Source: a virus
Lineage: Duplodnaviria; Caudoviricetes
Virus record (IMG/VR): IMGVR_UViG_3300036826_000291
Coordinates: 1 to 52,751 of that record
DNA: 52,751 bases
Direction: 5' to 3' (one strand)
Shown piece by piece: positions 13,018 to 52,751 of this stretch; the first letter of the stretch is position 1; each line of letters starts with the position of its first letter. Under the pieces are notes generated by a model that was not told the DNA's origin, searched no databases, and was given only the letters and a program-made list of their open reading frames with translations. Position numbers and translations under genes: made by a program.

Positions 13018-13215
13018 TTACGCGCGGCGCAGGTCGTCGAGCGAAATCTTGCCCGCAAGCACGAGCCGCAGCAGCTTGGCGATTGCCGGTGGCACTTTCG
13101 ATTCGCCGGCGGCCAGCCGCTGCGCTTGGCGGCGCGAGAGGCCAATCAGCGGTGCGGCACCGACTTGGCTCAGGCCAAGCCGGTCGAGTGCGGCGAGATA
13201 TTCTTTGGCGGTCAT
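13018..13215 (-). CDS. Small HTH protein between xis and int
   Basis: LGLSQVGAAPLIGLSRRQAQRLAAGE; AAGGA RBS. Confidence 0.8.
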   Translation of the reverse strand: MTAKEYLAALDRLGLSQVGAAPLIGLSRRQAQRLAAGESKVPPAIAKLLRLVLAGKISLDDLRRA

Positions 13216-13241
13216 TGGTGCGATTCCTTTCGAGTAAAATG

Positions 13242-13270
13242 AAATTACGCCGAAATGGCGCTCACGTCAA
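13242..13270 (-). promoter_or_regulatory. Sigma70-like promoter for the small HTH gene and int
   Basis: TTGACG-N17-TAATTT on the minus strand. Confidence 0.55.
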
Positions 13271-13315
13271 TATGGCGCAAGGGGGTAGCGGGAGGTCGCC
13301 CGGCGGTCGAGCGGC

Positions 13316-13567
13316 TCACCGCCGCAGCCGCTCCTGCAACAGCCGATGAATGGAATTACCAGCACTCTCCTTGATGCTGTCATAGGCCGCATCGAGTTCC
13401 AGGCGGTCCCAGGTCGCCATGGCGCGAATGTGAATCGGCTTTGGCAAAATGCCCTCATCGACCAATTGTAAAAAAGTTGTGCGGCTCATCGAAAGATAGG
13501 CGGCGGCGCGATCGGCGCGCAGCGCCCGCGGCGGATAGGCCAGATGATCGGCGAGCTTGTCGCTCAT
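13316..13567 (-). CDS. Excisionase/AlpA-like HTH
   Basis: PRALRADRAAAYLSMSRTTFLQLVDEGILPKP...WDRLELD, upstream of int. Confidence 0.85.
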   Translation of the reverse strand: MSDKLADHLAYPPRALRADRAAAYLSMSRTTFLQLVDEGILPKPIHIRAMATWDRLELDAAYDSIKESAGNSIHRLLQERLRR

Positions 13568-13612
13568 GGCTTTATAATGGCCTCCGCGTGGCAGCGGCAG
13601 TAGGGATCGTTT

Positions 13613-13852
13613 TCATTGGATTGCGTCCGCCTGCTCGCGCCGCGCCGCCTGCAACTGGCCGCTCAGGGTGTCAGCAAAGAACACCTTCGCCGCCGCGTCG
13701 GGGCCGGTGCCGGCGAGCACCAGCGCGGAATTGACGGCGAGCGCGTTGAGCAATTCAAAAACGCGGTCGGGATGCGCCGGGCCGGCGGCAAGATGCCGGC
13801 GCACGATGTCGGCGATCTCGGTCACCAGCGCCTCGACGCGCGCCTCGTCCAT
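13613..13852 (-). CDS. Hypothetical protein
   Basis: In the leftward early operon. Confidence 0.6.
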   Translation of the reverse strand: MDEARVEALVTEIADIVRRHLAAGPAHPDRVFELLNALAVNSALVLAGTGPDAAAKVFFADTLSGQLQAARREQADAIQ

Positions 13853-13856
13853 GCTT

Positions 13857-14117
13857 TCAGTGTCCTCGCTTCACCAGCTTGCAGGCGACTTTGACCGATC
13901 GCGGATCGTCAGCCCGACCAGCGGTCGTCACGACAATGCGTTGGCCGCACGTTTCGCACTCGATGAGGTATTGGCCGCACCGCTTGGCGGGATAGGGAAG
14001 CCGTTCGGTGCAAGTCGCGTCGGCGCTGCGCGAGGCATCTATGTCAATACCTTTCGGAAAAGCTGGATCAGCCGCGCATTGCGGCTCACGTCCGGCGTCG
14101 TACCAAGTCACTTTCAT
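13857..14117 (-). CDS. Cys-rich hypothetical protein
   Basis: MKVTWYDAGREPQC...LPYPAKRCG..CETCG; translationally coupled start. Confidence 0.6.
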   Translation of the reverse strand: MKVTWYDAGREPQCAADPAFPKGIDIDASRSADATCTERLPYPAKRCGQYLIECETCGQRIVVTTAGRADDPRSVKVACKLVKRGH

Positions 14118-14831: not shown

Positions 14832-15288
14832 GGATCACCCTCATTGCTGCGGAGAGCACCACGGCGAGCGCGGCGAGCGCCAGCGCCAGCCGGGCGACCG
14901 ACACCTCGTCGCGCCGGTATGAAATGGTCTGCACTACGCGCGGCGGTCGCGGCGGCGGCGGCAGTTTTGCCGCCGGCGGCGTCGGGGATACCGCGACAAA
15001 CACCGGCGGCAAGGCTGCGGGCGGCGCGAATGCGAGTGCGAGCGCAGACTCGAGCGGCGGCGCGTCCGGCGGCCGTGGCTGCGGCAACGGCACGATTGCC
15101 GGCGGCCACGCAAGTTCGGCCCTCGGCCTGCCGGCGCGTCCGCGATACCAGCAGCGGCGGTGCTCGATCATGCGCCATGCCCAATGCGCGCCGGCGCCGG
15201 CCTGCGCTTGGCAGGCGACCGCGCCTTGCGCCGGCCGCGAGCATGCGAGCACGAGGCCGCAAACCGCACAGGTGAGCGCGCGTCTCAT
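14749..15288 (-). CDS. Putative exported/membrane Pro-rich protein
   Basis: Signal-like N-terminus, HWAWRMIEHRRCWY motif, C-terminal hydrophobic helix. Confidence 0.5.
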   Translation of the reverse strand: MRRALTCAVCGLVLACSRPAQGAVACQAQAGAGAHWAWRMIEHRRCWYRGRAGRPRAELAWPPAIVPLPQPRPPDAPPLESALALAFAPPAALPPVFVAVSPTPPAAKLPPPPRPPRVVQTISYRRDEVSVARLALALAALAVVLSAAMRVIHDGTIGRGHGGFGAWHSRLGRGAQPFA

Positions 15289-15500
15289 GGGCGCGCCCGC
15301 CGCTTGTCGCCGGGCAGCGACAACCGCCGCAGCTTTTCAAGCGCGCCCTGCATGAAGCGGTAGTCCTCGGCGGTGATCTCGAACGTCGCAAACGCGGTGC
15401 GGCAGTCCTGGCAGATGCGGCGGCGCCGGCCGCCGGCGGTGGTGGTCACCACCGTGAGCGTCGAGCCGCAGCTCGGGCACGGCACATGCTCGGCGATCAT
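15285..15500 (-). CDS. NrdR-like Zn-ribbon protein
   Basis: CPSCG...RRRRICQDCRTAFATFE. Confidence 0.7.
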   Translation of the reverse strand: MIAEHVPCPSCGSTLTVVTTTAGGRRRRICQDCRTAFATFEITAEDYRFMQGALEKLRRLSLPGDKRRARP

Positions 15501-15832
15501 GCGTCATCCTCGATTCTGATCGGCGAAATCGAGAGCGCGGTGAGCGGACGATTGGGCTTGCCGTCGGCGCGCAGCGGCCGCAGCGTGCTTTGTGTGCGCC
15601 ATGCTTGAAGCGCGGCCTCAAGCGAGGGAAAGCGCATCGCCTTGGCGACGTCCGGCGAACTGGTGAAATAGCCGATGCCGCCGAACGCATTGACATCGAA
15701 GGCGACGATATATTCGCCGTCGATCACGCGATCGGCGAGCATCGCGCCGGCCGCCTTGACCGCATCGGTCACCGGCCGCTCGCCCTCGCCGGCGACATGG
15801 AATTGTCGCAAGACCCAAGCCATGACGATCAC
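15497..15832 (-). CDS. Hypothetical protein
   Basis: Coupled to recT; RADGKPNRPLTA motif. Confidence 0.65.
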   Translation of the reverse strand: MIVMAWVLRQFHVAGEGERPVTDAVKAAGAMLADRVIDGEYIVAFDVNAFGGIGYFTSSPDVAKAMRFPSLEAALQAWRTQSTLRPLRADGKPNRPLTALSISPIRIEDDA

Positions 15833-16704
15833 GCGGCGTTGTCGGGTTGCACGTCATCGGGCGGTGGCGGCTCCGGTTGCGTCGGTGGCGGCTCCTGTTG
15901 CGCGCCGCCGAAATGGTCGAGCGCGCCCATCACGCCGCCGGTGACAAGCTCGCGCTCGTGCTGCCGCTCGCTCGGCACCTGATCAAAGGCACCGTCGTCA
16001 TCGTCGCGGCGCATCAGGTGATCGAGGTCGTCGCTCGACGCCGGCAATCGCTTGTGCAGATTGCGCAGCACAGTCTTCAGCGCCGCTTCCTCCCACCATT
16101 GGCCCCACATCGGGCCGTCCTTGGCGCGGCTGATCGCGCGGCGCTTCTCGATGTCGGCGGCCGACATGACCTTGATCATCACGCCGCCGTCCTTGGTCTC
16201 GGCCATGGCATAGGCTTTGATCACCTTGCCGCCGCCATCGCCGGGCGAGTGGTAGAGGTGCTCGCCGTGCTCGTCCTTCCAGTATTTGAATTCCTCGCCC
16301 TCGCGCACCACGTCGACCGACACCGATTTGAACTGACCGCTGTTGCGGAATCGCTTCAACAGGCCGCCGACCATCGGCATCCACACCGCAATCTGCTGAC
16401 GGTAGGTGGGCGATTTCGGACTATTGTCGGCAAAGGCGACGATGGTGCCCTCGCGGCCGTCCGGCAACAGGCCGTCGTTGGCGGCGCGCATGCAGGCGTT
16501 GAAAAACGTCTGGCGATTGACGGCGATAAGGTCGACGTTCAAGGCGCAGGCGGTCATCACCACGCGCACGAATTTTTCCGGCGGCATGTGCGCGGGCAGC
16601 GCCATGCGGAATTCGTCGAGGCGGCTGTGCAGCTGCTCGCGCAGCGCCACCATGGGATGAATGGTCGGTTGCTGTTTCGCTCCCGCCTTGGTCGTGGTCG
16701 CCAT
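15829..16704 (-). CDS. recT: RecT-family single-strand annealing protein
   Basis: ALPAHMPPEKFVRVV, AANDGLLPDGRE, PMVGGLLKRFRNSG and WWEEAALKTVLRNLHKRLP motifs; GGAGG RBS before ATG 16704. Confidence 0.93.
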   Translation of the reverse strand: MATTTKAGAKQQPTIHPMVALREQLHSRLDEFRMALPAHMPPEKFVRVVMTACALNVDLIAVNRQTFFNACMRAANDGLLPDGREGTIVAFADNSPKSPTYRQQIAVWMPMVGGLLKRFRNSGQFKSVSVDVVREGEEFKYWKDEHGEHLYHSPGDGGGKVIKAYAMAETKDGGVMIKVMSAADIEKRRAISRAKDGPMWGQWWEEAALKTVLRNLHKRLPASSDDLDHLMRRDDDDGAFDQVPSERQHERELVTGGVMGALDHFGGAQQEPPPTQPEPPPPDDVQPDNAA

Positions 16705-16727
16705 TTGCGTTTTCCTCCGCGATTGAA

Positions 16728-16752
16728 GGGGAAGGGGGTTTACCCCTTCCCC
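16728..16752 (-). other. Strong hairpin closing the 3' end of the pentamer array
   Basis: GGGGAAGGGG-TAAAC-CCCCTTCCCC, a perfect 10-bp stem. It has no long U-tract, so it may be a processing/stability hairpin rather than a terminator. Confidence 0.75.
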
Positions 16753-16755
16753 GAT

Positions 16756-17152
16756 TTGCCGGCCTTGCCGGGCCGCGCCATGCGATGATCCGACTTGCCA
16801 ACCGAGCCAAGCCAAACCCCGCCCGGCCTCGCCGGCCTCGCCGCGCAAAACCGGGCAATGCAACGCAATGCAACCCTAGCCAAGCCTCGCCGAGCGATGC
16901 CGAGCGATGCCGCGCCGGCCGCGCGCTGCAACGCCGCGCCGTGCTCAACGCTGACAAGCGCGCCGAGCCCTGCCGGCCTTGCTCTGCCCGGCCTAGCCCG
17001 GCCGTGCTCTGCAACACCGTGACGCGCACCGCCGAGCACTGCACCGCCTTGCCGGCCTTGCCTCGCCAAGCCATGCTCGGCCGTGCCTTGCTACGCACCG
17101 CCTCGCCACGCCCCGCCATGCCATGACAAGCCAGACCGGGCGCCGCCTTGCC
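16756..17152 (-). repeat. Non-coding array of about 75 GGY-NN pentamers in five GGCC-delimited segments (candidate guide-RNA array)
   Basis: The minus strand reads GGCAA GGCGG CGCCC GGTCT GGCTT GTCAT GGCAT... in 5-nt phase. 4-nt GGCC junctions lie at 17054, 16975, 16917, 16834 and 16761. Confidence 0.88.
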
Positions 17153-17172
17153 AAAATCGGACAGCCGATCCG

Positions 17173-17673
17173 TCATGAAGCTCGCGCCTCCACCCGCTCG
17201 CGCTTGTGGGTCAGCCGTTCACGCGCCATGCGCACCAGATCGCAAATATCGAGCAATTCCCGGTAGCGGGTTTCAAAGGCGCGCAGGTCGCGCTCGGCGG
17301 CGCGCAGCACCGCAAGCTGCAAGTCGCGGCTGCCCATCACCTCGGTCGCGGTGCGGTAGCTGGTGCCCTTGGCATCCGACACCGACAGGAACGCGCGCCG
17401 CGGCGGCTTGTCGTCGTCGGGATCGACCATGCGCACGATGCGAATCAGTTCGCGCGCTTGGTCGAGCCGGTGCTGGTGCGCGGCGGTCTTGTCGTTCCAA
17501 TCGAAATACGGATGCAGCGGGTCGCCGCGCTCGCGCGCCTTGCGCACCACGTCGTCCGGTTCGAGCCGCCCGCCGTGCTCAAAGGCTATCTGCTCAAGCG
17601 CCGCGCCGATCACCTGCGGGTCGGCATGCGCGCGATTCCTGATGGTGATCGGACCGTCGCGGAACACATACAT
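17173..17673 (-). CDS. Accessory protein between the RAMP-like gene and the array
   Basis: 166 aa; LEPDDVVRKAR..GDPLHPYFDWNDKTAAHQHRLDQARELIR motif. Confidence 0.8.
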   Translation of the reverse strand: MYVFRDGPITIRNRAHADPQVIGAALEQIAFEHGGRLEPDDVVRKARERGDPLHPYFDWNDKTAAHQHRLDQARELIRIVRMVDPDDDKPPRRAFLSVSDAKGTSYRTATEVMGSRDLQLAVLRAAERDLRAFETRYRELLDICDLVRMARERLTHKRERVEARAS

Positions 17674-17679
17674 CGGCGG

Positions 17680-18459
17680 CTACTCCGCAGCCTGTTGCAA
17701 TTGCTCGGCAACCGGCATCGGTCCCTTGCCCTCGGCAAAGGCGTCCCACGCTGCTTCTTCCTCCAGCGACGCAAGATGGTACGACCCCGCCCATCCCTCT
17801 TTTTCGTTGCGCCAGTCGCCGACGCCGACGTCGTTGCCGCTGGCATTGATCAGATAGGCGAGCGCGTGCAGAGGACAGCGCGCGACGTTGAGCGTGCCGG
17901 TGATGCGCAGCGCCCACACCAGGAACTCGGCGCGATAGGCAAGGTTGGCGGTTTTACTGATCGTTCCGATTCGGACCATGTCCTCGCGCATGCGCGGCGC
18001 GGAACCGAAAATGCGCACCAGCGGCAGATTGCAGCTTGCCCCGGCCAGCGCCGGCCGCACGCTGACCAGCGTCGCATCGAGATGCAGCGCCGCCAGCACG
18101 TCGGTCTTGGCAATGCCGCGGTCGGTATGCGCCGCCGACTTGATCGCTTTCTTGATCGCGGTCACCGGAAAGCCATAGGTGCCGTCGCCCATGGCATAGA
18201 GCGAATTGACAAAATCTTCCTGCGGGTCGCGCGGCTTCTGTTCGACGATCGCGCCGGTTTGCTGCTGCAGCATCGCCAGCCGCGCCTTTTCCGACCACGC
18301 ATGGCAAATGAGCGGCGTGTCGCCGACAATCCAGAACTTGAATCGCTGGCGCATCGGCTCGTGCGACAGCATCGCGCCAAGCTGGATTTGCTCGGCGCTG
18401 ATCTTCGGCGGCGCGTCCTTGCGCTTGCTCGCCGCGCGCTTGGGTGACTTGGTGACCAT
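17680..18459 (-). CDS. RAMP/Cas7-like protein (putative RNA-guided effector subunit)
   Basis: N-terminal strand FWIVGDTPLICH, then YGFPVTAIKKAI (cf. RAMP iPgssiKGal), and a C-terminal Gly-rich loop GVGDWRNEKEGWAGSY; GGAGG RBS. Confidence 0.72.
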   Translation of the reverse strand: MVTKSPKRAASKRKDAPPKISAEQIQLGAMLSHEPMRQRFKFWIVGDTPLICHAWSEKARLAMLQQQTGAIVEQKPRDPQEDFVNSLYAMGDGTYGFPVTAIKKAIKSAAHTDRGIAKTDVLAALHLDATLVSVRPALAGASCNLPLVRIFGSAPRMREDMVRIGTISKTANLAYRAEFLVWALRITGTLNVARCPLHALAYLINASGNDVGVGDWRNEKEGWAGSYHLASLEEEAAWDAFAEGKGPMPVAEQLQQAAE

Positions 18460-18474
18460 TTGCCTTCCTCCCTG

Positions 18475-19398
18475 TTAAGCCGCTTCCTCGTCGCGGCGCT
18501 TGTCGATGATGCGCAATATGCGCAAATTTTTTTCCGGCACGGTGTATTGCGGGCGATGCTGCGTTTTCCATGTGATTGAAAAATCCGGCACCAGCGCGCG
18601 CTCGGCCTCGCCCATGCGCGCCATCAGCAGCGTTTCGATCTGCTTGCAGCGCGCTTCGGCTTTGCTGATCTGCTCCTTGAGGTCGGCGCGCTCAATCAGC
18701 CCGGAGACAATCGCGTTATCAAAGCGCAAGTCGGCCACCTGCTCGGCCGTTTCCTTCGGCCACAAGAGCGGCAGCAGCTCGCGATCGAGCCCGTAATCGG
18801 CATCGGGCTCGCGCCCGGCGGCGAGGTCTTGCCAGAACCGCGCGACCGCATCGCGGATGCGCTGCTCCGCACCGGCATGGCGCGCCACCTCGTACAGCGG
18901 ACATTCGAGATTGAATGGGTCAACGACAAGGGCGGCGACCACGCCGAACGCGGCATCGGTCAGCAGCAGCTCGGTGAGGTTCTGCAGCACGATCCAGAAC
19001 GGCGGATTGTCCGCGGTCCATTCGCGCTTGAAGACCGACGGCGCGACGGTCTTGCATTGCAGGACGCCGAGGCCGCGCGCGTCGCCATGCACGAAATAGT
19101 CGGGCGTCGCGCCGAGCCGCAAATCCGGGTCATAGAAATACTCGCTGCATTTTTCGAGCCGCCAATCCGGCCGCTGCTCCGCAACGGCAGCTGCTACGCT
19201 CGACTCCAAGAGCTTGCCGCGCCGCAGCACCGCGCTTGCCGGTGCCGGCAGTTCGATGCCGCGCTTCTCCATGTAGAGCCGCAGCGCCGAGCAATAGGGA
19301 TGAACACCAACCGTCGCCGCGACATTCGATGCCGTCACATGCTCGGGCCGCTTGGGATGCAGTTTGCCGTCCTCGACCGGCTCGCGGATCACTGGCAT
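18475..19398 (-). CDS. YqaJ-like viral recombinase/exonuclease
   Basis: VTASNVAA, RGKLLE, LGATPDY and LQCKT (PD-(D/E)xK-like) motifs. Confidence 0.88.
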   Translation of the reverse strand: MPVIREPVEDGKLHPKRPEHVTASNVAATVGVHPYCSALRLYMEKRGIELPAPASAVLRRGKLLESSVAAAVAEQRPDWRLEKCSEYFYDPDLRLGATPDYFVHGDARGLGVLQCKTVAPSVFKREWTADNPPFWIVLQNLTELLLTDAAFGVVAALVVDPFNLECPLYEVARHAGAEQRIRDAVARFWQDLAAGREPDADYGLDRELLPLLWPKETAEQVADLRFDNAIVSGLIERADLKEQISKAEARCKQIETLLMARMGEAERALVPDFSITWKTQHRPQYTVPEKNLRILRIIDKRRDEEAA

Positions 19399-20246
19399 GG
19401 CGCTCGCTCCCGCTCCGGCGGAACGACAACATAGCGGCTCCGCTTGATGCCAAGCGAACCGTCGCCGGCCCAATAGTCAGCGATCAGCGTCCAGATGCCG
19501 TGAATGCGGCGCTTGTGCGCGCGCGTCCAATGCAGCGCCTTGGTGCCGGTGGTTCCGATTCTTTCGCTGTCGCCGTCTACGATCACCGTCTCGGTCGACA
19601 GCAAAATTTCGGTCCAGGCTTGCAACGGAAAAATGCCGAGTATCTTGCGGCGCGCAAGGACTTCGCGGGCAAGGCCACGATGCGGATCGTGGACTTTGCG
19701 GCCGATAACTTTGGGCGTGTTGATCAGCAGCAGGAAGGCGTAGAGCCGCCACAGCATCGCTGGCACTTCATAGGGCTCGACATGCGAACCGTCAGTATTC
19801 TGGAGCCGGTAGTTTAGAGTTTCTCGAAATATTGCGTGCTCTATCGTGTTCCAGGTCAACGGGCCGGTCTTCGCGAGCGAATTGCTCAGCGCCATAACGC
19901 CGATGCGCCCGCCGAGAAAATTCGGGCCTGTCCGCGCAGCACAATAGACGGTAGCCCATTCTTGGCCTCCACCTTGGCGGACAAGCATGAACCCGATGCG
20001 CTCGCCGTTCTTGTCGTCGAATTCAATCCACGTCCTTGCAGCAGGAAGGAACGACCACTCGACCGAAGGGAAGGCAGCGACAAGCATCTGGTCAAGAATC
20101 GCGCCGGCGGCGTCATAGATTTGCGTGACCTCGAAGCAATGGAATTCTTCGCGAAACTGCGGCAGCAATCCGCCGCGATCTTGGAACGTCCGCCGTTTCA
20201 CCGGCAGCGTCATGTCCTTGACGATGCGATAGGCGAGCGGTGTCAT
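19389..20246 (-). CDS. Hypothetical protein
   Basis: 285 aa; C-terminal HWTRAHKR...YWAGDGSLG motif; coupled on both sides. Confidence 0.7.
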   Translation of the reverse strand: MTPLAYRIVKDMTLPVKRRTFQDRGGLLPQFREEFHCFEVTQIYDAAGAILDQMLVAAFPSVEWSFLPAARTWIEFDDKNGERIGFMLVRQGGGQEWATVYCAARTGPNFLGGRIGVMALSNSLAKTGPLTWNTIEHAIFRETLNYRLQNTDGSHVEPYEVPAMLWRLYAFLLLINTPKVIGRKVHDPHRGLAREVLARRKILGIFPLQAWTEILLSTETVIVDGDSERIGTTGTKALHWTRAHKRRIHGIWTLIADYWAGDGSLGIKRSRYVVVPPERERAPCQ

Positions 20247-44413: not shown

Positions 44414-45150
44414 TGCTCGGCAACGCACCGCTTAGCGGCCTGCCGCTTGCCGGCCTGCCGCGGCGCTATGAAGCAACCGCATCCGGCCATCTCTCGCTGA
44501 CCGGCGCGGCGAGCGGCCAACAGGTCATTACCGGGACCGCGGCGGGACAGCTTTGGCTCACCGGCGCCGCGGCGGCGATCCAGGCGATTGCCGGCACCGC
44601 GGCGGGCCAACTTCGCCTCACCGGCGCGGCGAGCGGCCAGCAGGTCATCGTCGGGACGGCCGCCGGCCAACTGATCTTCACCGGCGAGGCCGGCAGCATC
44701 AGCGTGCAGATCGGTTCCGCCGCCGGCACGCTCGTGCTGACCGGCGCCGCAGCCGGCGAGCACGCAATCGCCGCGATTGAAGGCACCGCCACGGGCGCGC
44801 TCGTGCTCACTGGTGCGGTTGCCGGCGAAGCGGGTGTCACCGCCCGGCCGGTGTTCGGCGCGATGGGCGGCAAGCACAAGCGGCCCCTGCGCACCGCCAT
44901 CGCGGTCGGCCGGCTTAGCTTTGCAGGTGCCGCCGCCGGGCTGGTCATCACCGAGGCCGAGGCCGCTGCTGCGCTGGCCATGGCGGGCGGCGGAAGCGGC
45001 ACGACCGCGCCGGTGGTGCCGCGCGAAGGCGCGGCGCGCGGCGAGTTTGCGAGCGCGCCGGAACCGCGCGAGGGCGCGGCGTGCGGGGAGTTGGGAATCG
45101 CGGGCGACCCGTGGCGGGACTACGACAACGCGCTCGCGCTTGCCGCGTGA
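44413..45150 (+). CDS. Gly/Ala/Thr-rich virion protein with ~20-aa repeats
   Basis: About 6 units resembling LTGAASGQQVITGTAAGQL. Confidence 0.6.
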   Translation: MLGNAPLSGLPLAGLPRRYEATASGHLSLTGAASGQQVITGTAAGQLWLTGAAAAIQAIAGTAAGQLRLTGAASGQQVIVGTAAGQLIFTGEAGSISVQIGSAAGTLVLTGAAAGEHAIAAIEGTATGALVLTGAVAGEAGVTARPVFGAMGGKHKRPLRTAIAVGRLSFAGAAAGLVITEAEAAAALAMAGGGSGTTAPVVPREGAARGEFASAPEPREGAACGELGIAGDPWRDYDNALALAA

Positions 45151-50857: not shown

Positions 50858-52751
50858 ATGCCGACCGAACGCATCGTGCAGGAAATCGTCGTCACCGGCG
50901 ACGAAGCCGCGCGCAAGCAGATCGAGGCGCTCGGCGCGGCCTCAGACAAGACCATGGCCAAGAGCGCCGCGGCGGCGGGCGGCGCGTCAAAATCCTTCGG
51001 CGAACTTGAAGGCGCCACGGAAGGGCTGCACGGCGCGTTGGAGGCGCTCAGCAAGCGCCTCGTCCCGCTCGCCGGCGAGTTCAACGAGGTCGCGGACGTC
51101 GTCAGAAAATTCGGCGGCACCATGAGCATCGCCGCCGCGGCGGTGGTGGCGCTGACCGGCGGGCTGTTCGAAGTTGCCCGGCGTTCGTCCGAGGCCGCCT
51201 CGGCAATCAAGGAGGCATCGACCCGCGCTGGCACCAGCGCGAAGAATTTTCAAGAAATGAGTTTCGCCTTCCGGCAGTCCGGCTCCAGCGCCGAGGCGCT
51301 TGAGAAGGGCATGGCCATCATCCTCGATGCCGCCGAGAAGGGCGGCGATGCGGCCAAGCCGTTCGAGAAGCTCGGCATCGCGCTGACGGAACTTGGCAAA
51401 GCGCGCGATCCGATCGACGTGATGCGCGACATTGCCGACAAGATGGCGGAAATCCCCGACCCGACGCAGCGCGCGCAAATCGCCATCAGTCTGTTCGGGC
51501 GCCGCGTCGGCACGCAATTTGTCGAGCCATTGCAGGACGGCTCCAAGGGCATCGACGAGCTGATCGACAAGCTCAAGAAAATCGGCGGCGTATTGAGCCC
51601 TGCGGAACTGGCGGTCGGCAAGGAATTTTCCGACACCATGGACCGGCTCGGCACCGCCGCATCGGCGACCGCCACCAAGGTCGGGCTGGCATTCGTGCCG
51701 ATGTTCGACCCGCTGATCGAATCGCTTTCTAAGATGATCGGCGCGATTCAGCCGTCGCTCGTTGCCGCCGCCCATGCGGTGACGGAATTCCTCAAGCCGG
51801 TGTTCGACGATATTGCGGCGGCGTTTTCCGGTTCCGGCGACAAGATCAAAAGCCAGTTCATCAAGGTGGTGGTCGACGGCTTCAAGGGCATGGGAGCCGT
51901 CATCGGCGAGGTGAGCAAGGAAATCGGTTCGGCGCTCGGCGGCTTGAAGACCGTCGTCGATGGCCTTACCGCCGCCTTTAATGGATTGTTCGGCACCAAG
52001 TTGACCAGCTTCGATCTGGTCGGCTTCGCCATCGGCGCTCGCTTGGCGGCGACCGCGCTGCGCCTGCTGGCTGGCGCCGTCATCTTCCTGACCCGCGCGG
52101 TCAATCCATGGATGATCGCAATTTCGGGCGTGCTCGCGCTGCTGGCGATCCTCAACGACAACATCTCGCCGGAACAGTGGAAGGCACTCGGCGCGGCAAT
52201 CGCAAACATCGGCCCCACAATTACCAACGCCATCGCCGGGATGGGAAATCGCATCAAGCAGCTTTGGAATGATGCGCTGACCTTCATCGGCGACAAGACC
52301 AGCGCGGTCATGACCGCCGTTGCGGGCTTCTTCAAGCCGGTGACCGGCGCGGTCGCAAGCGCGCTCGAAGGCGTCAAGCAGCTGTGGGCCGACGCCTTGA
52401 AATGGATCGGCGACAAGGCGAGCGCCGCGCTCGCCGCCGTTGGCGGATTGTGGCCGCAGGTCACCGACGCGCTCGGCGGCGTGCTGACCCGCATCAAGCA
52501 AGCATGGGCCGCCGCCTGGGCTTTCGTCAGCGACAAGGCGAGCGCCGCGCTCGCCGCCGTTGGCGGTTTCTTCGCGCCGGTCACGGACGCGGTCGCAAGC
52601 GCGCTCGACGGCATCAAACAGCTATGGGCGGATGGCTGGAATTGGATTCAGCAGAAGGCCGACGCCGCACTCACCGCCGTTGCCGGCTTCTTCAAGCCGG
52701 TGATCGACAAGTTCACCGGCGCGATCGACAGCATCAAGCAGCTGTGGGCGG
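50858..52751 (+). CDS. Tape measure protein, N-terminal part (about 806 aa when joined to 1..577)
   Basis: The ORF from ATG 50858 runs off the end; Ala/Gly-rich with periodic Trp/Phe. Confidence 0.88.
   Translation, partial: MPTERIVQEIVVTGDEAARKQIEALGAASDKTMAKSAAAAGGASKSFGELEGATEGLHGALEALSKRLVPLAGEFNEVADVVRKFGGTMSIAAAAVVALTGGLFEVARRSSEAASAIKEASTRAGTSAKNFQEMSFAFRQSGSSAEALEKGMAIILDAAEKGGDAAKPFEKLGIALTELGKARDPIDVMRDIADKMAEIPDPTQRAQIAISLFGRRVGTQFVEPLQDGSKGIDELIDKLKKIGGVLSPAELAVGKEFSDTMDRLGTAASATATKVGLAFVPMFDPLIESLSKMIGAIQPSLVAAAHAVTEFLKPVFDDIAAAFSGSGDKIKSQFIKVVVDGFKGMGAVIGEVSKEIGSALGGLKTVVDGLTAAFNGLFGTKLTSFDLVGFAIGARLAATALRLLAGAVIFLTRAVNPWMIAISGVLALLAILNDNISPEQWKALGAAIANIGPTITNAIAGMGNRIKQLWNDALTFIGDKTSAVMTAVAGFFKPVTGAVASALEGVKQLWADALKWIGDKASAALAAVGGLWPQVTDALGGVLTRIKQAWAAAWAFVSDKASAALAAVGGFFAPVTDAVASALDGIKQLWADGWNWIQQKADAALTAVAGFFKPVIDKFTGAIDSIKQLWA
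52250..52751 (+). repeat. 120-nt (40-aa) tandem repeats in the TMP
   Basis: KQ(L/A)W codons at 52256, 52376, 52496, 52616 and 52736; 52625-52708 is identical to 44-127. Confidence 0.85.

What the first reader, a model, noticed from the sequence alone, without database searches (positions are those of the whole stretch)
16756..17152. The array has a two-level grammar: 5-nt phase, punctuated into five segments by GGCC junctions
Parsed by hand on the minus strand. S1 (17152-17054, 19 units): GGCAA GGCGG CGCCC GGTCT GGCTT GTCAT GGCAT GGCGG GGCGT GGCGA GGCGG TGCGT AGCAA GGCAC GGCCG AGCAT GGCTT GGCGA GGCAA GGCC. S2 is 17053-16975 (15 units), S3 16974-16917 (11), S4 16916-16834 (16) and S5 16833-16761 (14), followed by a final GGCAA. 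Every segment ends in a 4-nt GGCC followed by GGC. About 60% of triplets are exact GGY and nearly all others differ at one base (TGC, AGC, CGC, GTC). S3-S5 each contain one internal 4-nt unit. The NN positions are largely non-repeating, unlike a slippage microsatellite. Inference: GGCC-GGC marks processing boundaries that give five guide RNAs of about 58-99 nt.
Basis: partly seen in the sequence, partly recalled or inferred. Interest (0 to 1): 0.88.

Follow-up and report, generated by a model that had tools for sequence, protein, structure and literature searches.

The report
Staggered VIPR guide-RNA array in phage
This stretch is the guide-RNA array of a VIPR system, a phage weapon against rival viruses first described in 2026, and its GGCC punctuation is the local form of a rule that splits such arrays into separate guides.

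Summary
On the minus strand, 17152-16756 is an array of 80 units with a 5-nt period (GGC/NGC + NN). It is unique in the 52.7-kb phage contig, shows no 3-nt coding signal, and every phase break is a 4-nt unit; none is a 6-nt unit. The two genes just upstream on the same strand identify the system. The 259-aa protein is a Vipr: its family profile matches the solved SUSP1 Vipr protein (E 7.8e-37), it has a Cas7/Csm3-like fold, and the GGY-contacting residues are kept. The 166-aa protein is a conserved partner (vap-like). VIPR systems (four bioRxiv preprints, 2026) use GGY/NN repeat RNAs whose NN dinucleotides read target DNA. The paper names 'staggered arrays' of guides that overlap by 1 nt, which is this grammar. 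In about 160 loci fetched here, 4-nt junctions outnumber 6-nt ones 321 to 67, and segments peak at 9-13 units. The usual junction is GGCA|GGC. The window's own clade uses GGCY, usually after an AA unit. So this is a new member of a known kind. Guide boundaries at GGCC are well supported by comparison, but RNA ends, the number of guides (5 or up to 8) and the targets remain untested.

The parts
16756..17152 (-). vrRNA array of the VIPR locus: 80 GGY/NGC+NN units, 5-nt period, staggered architecture
   Evidence: No period-3 power (0.65, against 7.3-14.4 in the three neighbouring genes). No Rfam match.
17054..17152 (-). Segment S1: 19 five-nt units + GGCC (99 nt). 15 of 20 triplets are GGY by my count from the printed parse. 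Ends with an AA unit + GGCC.
16975..17053 (-). Segment S2: 15 units + GGCC (79 nt). 9 of 16 triplets are GGY by my count. Same first two NN (AA, GG) and same end (AA unit + GGCC) as S1.
16917..16974 (-). Segment S3: 11 units + GGCC (58 nt), with an internal 4-nt unit GGCG at 16964-16961 (3 + 9 units)
16834..16916 (-). Segment S4: 16 units + GGCC (83 nt), with an internal 4-nt unit GGGT at 16876-16873. Holds two 10-nt local duplications.
16761..16833 (-). Segment S5: 14 units + GGCC (73 nt), with an internal 4-nt unit GGTT at 16803-16800. The part after it starts with NN AA, GG and ends with an AA unit + GGCC, like S1 and S2. A lone GGCAA follows at 16760-16756.
16728..16752 (-). 10-bp G+C-rich hairpin 8 nt after the last unit, followed by a weak U tract. 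Likely the 3' end or terminator of the vipr-vap-array transcript.
   Evidence: z -3.0; 1 of 200 shuffles folds as well. 2 of the 4 relatives folded (L136, L139) have a hairpin plus U-run at the same place. The consensus terminator scan did not list it.
17173..17673 (-). vap-like accessory gene (166 aa, phrog_15946, no Pfam family). Conserved partner of Vipr; conserved motif PLH..FEWDD..AA...RL.QAR.LIR.
17680..18459 (-). vipr gene (259 aa as the longest ORF; the first ~36 residues are an extension with low model confidence). RAMP fold. H53, R176 and D215-W216-R217 align with the GGY-contacting residues of SUSP1 Vipr.
15829..16704 (-). Context: recT (PF03837), starting 24 nt after the hairpin
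18475..19473 (-). Context: YqaJ/RecE-like exonuclease, directly upstream of vipr

Best explanation
The array is the guide-RNA (vrRNA) array of a VIPR system. The system consists of vipr (17680-18459), a vap-like gene (17173-17673) and the repeats (17152-16756), all on the minus strand of a soil phage contig, ending in a hairpin.

Mechanism, taken from the published SUSP1 system and inferred here by homology: the transcript is coated by Vipr protomers, one per 5-nt unit. Each GGY triplet is flipped into protein pockets. The NN dinucleotides are presented to base-pair with double-stranded target DNA that reads NN-x-NN-x (one base skipped). Binding silences transcription of a competing mobile element.

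The array has the 'staggered' architecture. Guides abut without tails or ribozymes, and each guide ends in a 4-nt unit, so the next guide is one base out of register (1-nt overlap). In this clade the stop mark is GGCY, usually after a GGCAA unit; here it is GGCC.

My inference: the -1 shift ends one Vipr filament and starts the next, and the RNA between filaments is trimmed. This gives five guides of 58-99 nt, of which S1, S2 and the last part of S5 look canonical.

Shown here: the grammar, the Vipr identity, and the generality of the junction. Inferred: transcription, cleavage at the junctions, the number of guides, the targets.
For: (1) Vipr identity. A profile of 57 homologues with the window protein first matches PDB 36pp 'SUSP1 Vipr protein' at E 7.8e-37 over 186 of 206 profile positions. 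The AlphaFold2 model (pLDDT 86.5) finds Csm3/Cas7 backbone subunits first (36 matches with E <= 0.001). The residues that the structure paper names as holding G1, G2 and Y (H17, R138, D177, W178, R179) align with H53, R176 and D215-W216-R217.

(2) Association. In 86 of the 119 sources with a called array, a homologue of this protein lies beside the array, 84 of 86 on the GGC strand. In 30 of 31 multi-array loci all arrays share one strand. A profile search finds Vipr in 115 of 161 sources.

(3) Grammar. In 118 arrays there are 5940 five-nt, 321 four-nt and 67 six-nt units, and GGCA|GGC makes up 166 of the 321. Segment lengths peak at 9-13 units, within the published 9-16 repeats.

(4) Clade motif. 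The five closest loci (Vipr 50-60% identical, vap 31-61%, same order vipr-vap-array) mostly use a pyrimidine as junction base; L139 mostly uses GGCA. Counting the window, 52 of 90 junctions follow an AA unit, against 79 of 890 other units (Fisher 1e-26).

(5) Modularity. Two 99.4%-identical contigs (L149, L159) with GGCC-type arrays differ by exactly four whole segments, 221 nt.

(6) The paper's text and the legend of fig. S18 describe staggered, 1-nt-overlapping vrRNAs.
Against: No RNA data exist for this phage, so transcription and RNA ends are unverified.

The array is degenerate. Only 64% of triplets are GGY, against 77-96% in the closest relatives and other GGCC-type arrays. G1 is replaced in 22 of 80 units although the G1-contacting residues are kept. 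S3-S5 carry internal frame breaks that lack the clade's AA mark, and they carry local duplications. Part of the array may therefore be decaying.

S1 (20 units) exceeds the published 9-16 range, though relatives reach 21.

Only 3 of the 5 GGCC junctions follow an AA unit. Within the window alone the AA enrichment is not significant (P 0.13).

No target was found: best 1-nt-skip matches of S1 and S2 in 2.9 Mb of local sequence were 60-66% of NN positions, no better than the 0- and 2-nt controls.

The L149/L159 difference is flanked by a duplicated segment and could be a recombination event or an assembly collapse.

The junction base follows the Vipr tree only weakly: 6 changes against a shuffle mean of 7.7, with 12 of 500 shuffles as low.

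The window protein alone does not match SUSP1 Vipr by phmmer; only the profile does.
Confidence: 0.8

Rival explanations
1. It is a VIPR array, but it is not cut. One long transcript carries several Vipr filaments, and the 4-nt units only reset the register. The segments act as tethered guides, or only some of them act at all.
For: No nuclease, ribozyme or tail lies between segments. The vap-like protein looks like a DNA binder, not a nuclease, though only weakly (best fold match E 0.05, winged-helix proteins). The paper reports sRNA-seq confirmation for other architectures only.
Against: The legend of fig. S18 speaks of 'individual processed vrRNAs'. Type II vrRNAs are discrete ~100-nt species. 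A conserved end motif (AA unit + GGCY) suggests a defined end.
Confidence: 0.12
2. It is a decaying VIPR array. The locus is VIPR by descent, but most of this array (S3-S5 at least) no longer makes working guides.
For: 64% GGY against 77-96% in relatives. By my count from the parse, S2-S4 have 50-56% GGY. There are three internal -1 breaks without the clade's end motif and three local tandem duplications. The array has 80 units against 77-270 in the five closest relatives.
Against: vipr and the vap-like gene are intact, with the key residues kept. [quoted passage not shown] 68 of 80 triplets still read NGC. Alphaproteobacterial relatives also have lower fidelity (66-86%).
Confidence: 0.15
3. 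It is unrelated to Vipr: a slippage microsatellite, a DNA-level element (iterons, bent DNA, G-quadruplex tract), or a binding array for another multimeric protein such as RecT or a TRAP-like ring.
For: The array lies directly upstream of recT. G2N3 repeats could form two-tier quadruplexes. The naked RNA folds better than its shuffles (z -3.7).
Against: NN entropy is 3.72 of 4 bits, so this is not a simple repeat. The element travels with Vipr in 86 of 119 loci, whereas no recT-like family is among the 25 largest neighbour clusters (the third largest covers 11 loci). Mycobacteriophage Quico has the array beside a Vipr homologue in its early right-arm genes, with no annotated RecT in the 6-kb view. 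Orientation is strand-specific.
Confidence: 0.02
4. The region is translated (ORFs of 251, 109 and 53 aa overlap it on the minus strand).
For: Long ORFs are listed across the region.
Against: Period-3 power is 0.65, against 7.3-14.4 in the neighbouring genes. G+C is flat across codon positions in all three frames. A 5-nt period with -1 shifts cannot keep a reading frame. Such ORFs are expected in DNA of 72% G+C.
Confidence: 0.01

Closest known systems
Staggered vrRNA arrays of VIPR systems (bioRxiv 10.64898/2026.04.26.720920; main text and legend of fig. S18)
   Same: GGY/NN pentanucleotide units next to a vipr gene. Guides abut, each offset by one base, so that the end of one is the start of the next. 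No tails or ribozymes.
   Different: I could not see the figure or the supplements, so I cannot say which VIPR type or which junction bases were shown there. Here the junction is GGCC after an AA unit, the triplets are unusually degenerate (64% GGY), and three extra -1 breaks occur inside segments. According to the text, this architecture was not among those confirmed by sRNA-seq.
Type II VIPR of Escherichia phage SUSP1 (same paper; structures in 10.64898/2026.04.26.720927; PDB 36pp)
   Same: Homologous Vipr protein (profile E 7.8e-37) with the same G-loop (D-W-R), thumb arginine and beta-sheet histidine. A small accessory gene. GGY/NN guides on the gene strand. A phage host.
   Different: SUSP1 vrRNAs have 9-16 repeats, each followed by an invariable ~40-nt tail with a pseudoknot, and they lie both upstream and downstream of the genes. 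Here there is no tail, there is a single downstream array, and the proteins are too far apart for a single-sequence match.
Class 1 CRISPR backbone (Cas7/Csm3 on crRNA)
   Same: RAMP fold with thumb and glycine-rich loop. One protomer per fixed RNA step. Periodic base flipping. An array of guides transcribed as one precursor.
   Different: The step is 5 nt instead of 6. Three bases are flipped on the guide and one on the target. There are no direct repeats, no Cas6-type processing, no cas1/cas2. The system is encoded by a virus.
TRAP (trp RNA-binding attenuation protein) binding sites
   Same: Triplets separated by 2-3 variable bases, each read by one subunit of a multimer. This was my first analogy, from recall.
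   Different: TRAP sites are 11 GAG/UAG triplets in a leader RNA that regulates attenuation; they are not guides. There is no homology and no TRAP-like gene here. Rejected once Vipr was identified.

Membership tests
VIPR system | A Vipr protein (minimal RAMP: RRM core, glycine-rich loop, thumb) encoded beside the repeats | tested here: met
   Profile match to PDB 36pp SUSP1 Vipr, E 7.8e-37. The AF2 model (pLDDT 86.5) matches Csm3/Cas7 chains best, E 3e-5 and up, with TM-scores normalised to the target of 0.4-0.5.
VIPR system | Residues that hold the GGY triplet (SUSP1 H17, R138, D177-W178-R179) | tested here: met
   H53, R176 and D215-W216-R217 fall in the same alignment columns. R217 is invariant and R176 nearly invariant in 57 sequences. 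This is by alignment only; there is no structure with RNA.
VIPR system | Tandem pentanucleotide GGY/NN (YNNGG) repeats on the vipr strand, with NN hypervariable | tested here: met
   80 units, 64% GGY and 85% NGC. NN entropy 3.72 bits. Same strand as vipr. In the fetched loci the NN columns carry 0.35 bits or less.
VIPR system | A vap accessory gene in the operon | tested here: inconclusive
   The 166-aa gene between vipr and the array is conserved with Vipr in 27 loci and in all 5 closest relatives. Confident model (pLDDT 92), but only weak winged-helix-like fold matches (E 0.05 or worse). I could not match it to vap1-6 because the supplements are closed.
VIPR system | Repeat RNA expressed and bound by Vipr | not testable with these tools
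   No RNA run is listed. This needs sRNA-seq and a pull-down.
VIPR system | Natural targets that match the NN code with one skipped base | tested here: inconclusive
   Only the window and 2.9 Mb of fetched loci were scanned. Nothing rose above the 0- and 2-nt-skip controls. Public collections were not scanned with the code pattern.
Staggered vrRNA array (VIPR sub-architecture) | Successive guides abut and are offset by one base; no tail, pseudoknot or ribozyme between them | tested here: met
   7 of 7 parsed phase breaks, plus the terminal one, are 4-nt units; none is 6 nt. No Rfam family, hammerhead included, in the region.
Staggered vrRNA array (VIPR sub-architecture) | Mature RNA ends at the junctions | not testable with these tools
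   No RNA data. The paper does not report sRNA-seq for this architecture.
Type II VIPR (SUSP1 / P. fulva clades) | Each repeat tract is followed by an invariable ~40-nt structured 3' tail | tested here: not met
   Segments follow each other directly. The only hairpin is after the whole array.
CRISPR array | Direct repeats of roughly 23-50 nt alternating with spacers; cas genes nearby (definition from recall) | tested here: not met
   Tandem Repeats Finder shows no such repeats around the locus. No PADLOC family at the default cut-off; only a Cas5 hint at E 0.056 in one relative.

The most novel reading that the evidence does not exclude
The 4-nt unit is a self-contained punctuation mark. By shifting the GGY register by -1, it ends one Vipr filament and nucleates the next, so guide length and RNA ends are set by protein phasing alone, without a tail, ribozyme or dedicated nuclease. 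The mark has clade-specific dialects: GGCA in most phages, and an AA unit + GGCY in the window's clade. These may keep the arrays of competing phages from being read by the wrong Vipr. Whole segments are gained and lost as modules, as in L149/L159.
Probability: 0.35. Interest if true: 0.55.

Novelty: new member of a known kind. Interest (0 to 1): 0.35.

Why it matters
VIPR was described only in 2026, as an RNA-guided DNA-silencing system of phages and a proposed ancestor of the CRISPR effector backbone. This window adds a soil-phage member whose closest genomic relatives (up to 43% identity) are in alphaproteobacterial assemblies.

It has the one array architecture (staggered) that, according to the text I read, was not verified by RNA sequencing. 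The survey made here gives that architecture a testable rule:
- -1 junctions outnumber +1 about five to one;
- segments peak at 9-13 units;
- the junction base differs between clades;
- an AA unit precedes the junction in the window's clade.

The survey also shows that 27 Mycobacterium and 5 Gordonia phage records carry unannotated Vipr homologues, which offers tractable laboratory systems. For this window the practical gain is annotation: two 'hypothetical' genes and a 470-nt 'intergenic' gap become one defined anti-competitor module sitting between exo and recT.

Tried and rejected
First ideas, before Vipr was found (all from recall): a TRAP-like ring protein reading triplets on a leader RNA; RecT or another annealing protein loading in 5-nt steps on the DNA upstream of its own gene; two-tier G-quadruplexes; a Rho or CsrA sponge. 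I dropped them when neighbour clustering tied the array to the 259-aa protein in 86 of 119 loci and not to recT, and when that protein matched Vipr.

Searches that gave nothing:
- Rfam at gathering scores on the whole window and at E <= 1 on 16600-17300: 0 matches.
- tRNA scan: 0 genes.
- Pfam for both proteins: 0 families.
- PADLOC: nothing below E 0.04.
- PDB profile search for the vap-like protein: nothing below E 0.049.
- The search for related loci with the vap-like protein in genome contigs and in viral contigs: no relative.
- blastn of the Quico array against phages: no match, probably because of the low-complexity filter.
- Literature search for 'GGCNN': 20 of 123 papers listed, none relevant.

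Sequencing runs: no RNA holder is listed. Contigs of four soil-metagenome DNA runs laid on 15800-19500 showed the same sequence in one whole-length contig and in fragments, with no variant array, so nothing was learned about gain or loss of segments in close strains.

Targets:
- 1-nt-skip scans of the eight sub-segments and the five reader segments against the window and all fetched loci (2.9 Mb, both strands) gave 60-67% NN match for S1, S2 and the merged S4 and S5, and 75% for the 12-unit S3. For the 7-9-unit pieces they gave 78-88%. In every case the result equals the 0- and 2-nt-skip controls. The 3-nt 'skip' only finds the array itself.
- The same scan with 498 unique segments of 10-20 units from all arrays showed no excess for the 1-nt rule. 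The database is far too small for this to count against targeting.
- I did not search the public collections with the NN-x-NN pattern of the window's guides. It remains the obvious next computation.

Junction base on a Vipr tree (109 proteins; 49 loci with at least 3 junctions): 6 changes against a shuffle mean of 7.7, a weak signal.

I could not assign a VIPR type (I-VII) or a vap number. Figures are not held and supplements are closed, and they may already contain the junction grammar reported here. 'Staggered' occurs 3 times in paper 1 and 0 times in paper 3. I did not search papers 2 and 4 for it.

Full report
WHAT IS THERE

Read on the minus strand, 17152-16756 fills most of a 470-nt gap between a 166-aa ORF (17173-17673) and recT (15829-16704).

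- Lag-5 identity is 0.531 against 0.23-0.30 at other lags. That is ten standard deviations above shuffles and far above any other 397-nt window of the contig (maximum 0.342 in 1031 windows). A sliding scan finds no second such region.
- The held genome is the window itself, one 52,751-base contig. It carries phage recombination genes and stands in soil-metagenome DNA runs.
- The region has no 3-nt periodicity (power 0.65, against 7.3-14.4 in the three neighbouring genes) and flat G+C across codon positions. The ORFs that overlap it are therefore artefacts of 72% G+C.

THE GRAMMAR

A Viterbi parse that allowed units of 3-7 nt returns 80 units: 73 of 5 nt, 7 of 4 nt, none of 6 nt.

- The 4-nt units end at 17054, 16975, 16917 and 16834 (GGCC, each followed by GGC) and at 16961, 16873 and 16800 (GGCG, GGGT, GGTT). 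A fifth GGCC|GGC precedes the last GGCAA.
- Triplets: GGC 46, GGT 5, TGC 11, CGC 6, AGC 5, GTC 4, others 3.
- The NN positions use 15 of 16 dinucleotides (3.72 bits).
- C opens only 8 of 72 regular NN but 5 of the 8 short or last units (P 7e-4). All shifts are -1.
- Caveat: three short tandem duplications lie in S4 and at the S4/S5 border.

WHAT IT BELONGS TO

A blastn search with 15000-20000 hit, inside the array, an unannotated gap of mycobacteriophages Quico and Florinda. That gap holds the same GGCNN array.

Their loci have G+C of 39-76% and arrays of 100-1640 nt.
- I clustered all ORFs within 3.5 kb of the arrays. One family of about 200 aa is present in 86 of 119 sources with a called array, 84 of 86 on the GGC strand, usually abutting the array. 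A second family of about 165 aa is present in 27.
- In the window these are the 259-aa ORF 17680-18459 (phrog_4652) and the 166-aa ORF 17173-17673 (phrog_15946). Neither has a Pfam family.
- A profile of 57 members of the first family matches one PDB entry, 36pp 'SUSP1 Vipr protein', at E 7.8e-37. The window protein alone does not match it.
- Its AlphaFold2 model (pLDDT 86.5) resembles Csm3/Cas7 subunits of type III and VII CRISPR complexes.

THE LITERATURE

Searching 'Vipr' + 'phage' and 'vrRNA'/'GGY' led to four 2026 bioRxiv preprints.

- 10.64898/2026.04.26.720920. I read the abstract, Results, Discussion, three Methods sections and legend passages. VIPR consists of Vipr, a vap gene and vrRNAs of 9-16 YNNGG repeats. 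The NN dinucleotides pair with double-stranded DNA targets with one base skipped, on either strand, without a PAM. Targets are satellites and rival prophages. There are seven types. Type II guides carry a ~40-nt tail with a pseudoknot. [quoted passage not shown] ' The legend of fig. [quoted passage not shown]
- 10.64898/2026.04.26.720927. I read the abstract and two Results sections. One protomer binds per repeat. G1 is held by H17 and D177, G2 by R138 and W178, Y by a pocket that includes R179.
- 10.64898/2026.10.15.759431. I read the abstract and passages. It shows the biology in SUSP1 and does not mention staggered arrays.
- 10.64898/2026.10.21.760802. I read passages. It recovers 99 period-5 clusters, some with non-GGY triplets.
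- I saw no figures or supplements.

MEMBERSHIP

The window protein keeps H53, R176 and D215-W216-R217 in the columns of the SUSP1 residues. The array is on its strand. The vap-like protein models confidently (pLDDT 92), but it only weakly resembles winged-helix DNA binders (best E 0.05). No tail, pseudoknot or ribozyme separates the segments. The locus is therefore not of the type II layout and fits the staggered layout. A 4-nt unit GGCN followed by G is a 5-nt unit whose last base is the first G of the next guide.

IS THE JUNCTION GENERAL?

- In 118 parsed arrays there are 5940 five-nt, 321 four-nt and 67 six-nt units. 63 arrays have more 4-nt than 6-nt units and 15 the reverse. GGCA|GGC makes up 166 of the 321 junctions. 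GGCC|GGC makes up 6, among them the window's own.
- At 215 clean junctions from 52 loci the fourth base is A in 78%, while the neighbouring NN carry 0.35 bits or less.
- Segment lengths are bimodal: a main peak at 9-13 units and a minor one at 2-3.
- A second pattern scan with a GGCC unit found 25 more contigs. In some of their arrays C or T dominates: L144 has 15 of 22 junctions as GGCC, L149 has 10 of 15, L159 has 13 of 19, and L156 has 14 of 20 as GGCT.
- On a tree of 109 Vipr proteins the window's nearest neighbours are L156, L139, L136, L144 and L141. Four of these five have pyrimidine junctions. They share 50-60% identical Vipr, 31-61% identical vap and the order vipr-vap-array.
- In this clade, counting the window, 52 of 90 junctions follow a unit with NN = AA, against 79 of 890 other units (Fisher 1e-26). 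The window shows this at 3 of its 5 GGCC junctions and at none of the three internal 4-nt units.
- L149 and L159, 99.4% identical, differ by four whole segments, but a duplicated segment flanks the difference.

WHAT STAYS OPEN

No RNA run is listed, and the laid DNA contigs add nothing. Transcription, cleavage and the number of guides are therefore inferred.

- The array is more degenerate than those of its relatives: 64% GGY against 77-96%.
- S3-S5 carry extra frame breaks.
- Local 1-nt-skip scans found no self-target and no target. That agrees with the paper's report of no self-targeting but says nothing else.
- A hairpin follows the array (z -3.0), as in 2 of the 4 relatives folded. The array is probably the 3' part of the vipr-vap transcript.

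VERDICT

It is unproven in detail. The element is a new member of a system already in print, so the interest is moderate.

Noticed in passing
L001:2942-3231 (Mycobacterium phage Quico, NC_028751.1); hits H17-H48: 32 phage records in the GenBank phage collection (27 Mycobacterium, 5 Gordonia) encode a homologue of the window's Vipr, annotated 'hypothetical protein'. In Quico a clean 49-unit GGCNN array with four GGCA junctions lies in the unannotated gap between QUICO_56 and QUICO_57 (the Vipr homologue). QUICO_58 is the vap-like partner. The term 'mycobacter' does not occur in the main text of the discovery paper.
   Followed up: partly
window 15829-19473 (minus strand): The VIPR module sits inside the phage recombination module, in the order YqaJ/RecE-like exonuclease, vipr, vap-like gene, array, recT. 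The closest relative, L156, also has an exonuclease homologue (32% identity) upstream of vipr, but no recT hit.
   Followed up: partly
L149 (minus strand, 13187-14091 in reverse-complement coordinates) and L159:433-1558: Two 99.4%-identical viral contigs have identical GGCC-type arrays except for four extra whole segments (221 nt) in L159. The last extra segment is an exact copy of segment 13, and the one before it shares its 3' part with segment 12. The cause could be segment duplication, recombination or assembly collapse.
   Followed up: partly
all arrays of L001-L160: Segment lengths are bimodal. Besides the 9-13-unit peak there are many mini-segments of 2-3 units (105 and 64 of 1056), often at the start of an array (for example in L057 and L112). 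The window's 3-unit piece 16974-16961 is of this kind. Their meaning is unknown.
   Followed up: no
46 of 161 sources (list): 46 of 161 sources with GGY/NN arrays gave no Vipr match to the profile at E <= 1e-5. Some arrays lie at contig ends. Others may be divergent Vipr types or 'solo' arrays of the kind the third preprint describes.
   Followed up: no
window 16823-16843, 16855-16874, 16889-16912: There are exact local tandem duplications of 9-10 nt (two units) inside S4 and across the S4/S5 junction. The 9-nt one recreates a GGCC junction. This suggests that junctions and new units can arise by slippage.
   Followed up: no
window 16756-17152 as RNA: The naked array RNA is predicted to fold more stably than its shuffles (-232.8 against a mean of -211.7 kcal/mol, z -3.7), through GGCC/GCGC self-complementarity. 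Whether this competes with Vipr loading is unknown.
   Followed up: no
window 52313-52749 and 44476-44690: There are long imperfect tandem repeats of period 120 (3.6 copies, running to the contig end) and period 60 (3.6 copies). They are probably coding repeats of structural proteins and are unrelated to the finding.
   Followed up: no
L122-L125: The closest genomic relatives of the window's Vipr (42-43% identity) lie in metagenome-assembled genomes labelled Alphaproteobacteria, Sphingomonadaceae and Xanthobacteraceae. They have the same vipr, about 570 nt, then array layout. This hints at an alphaproteobacterial host.
   Followed up: partly
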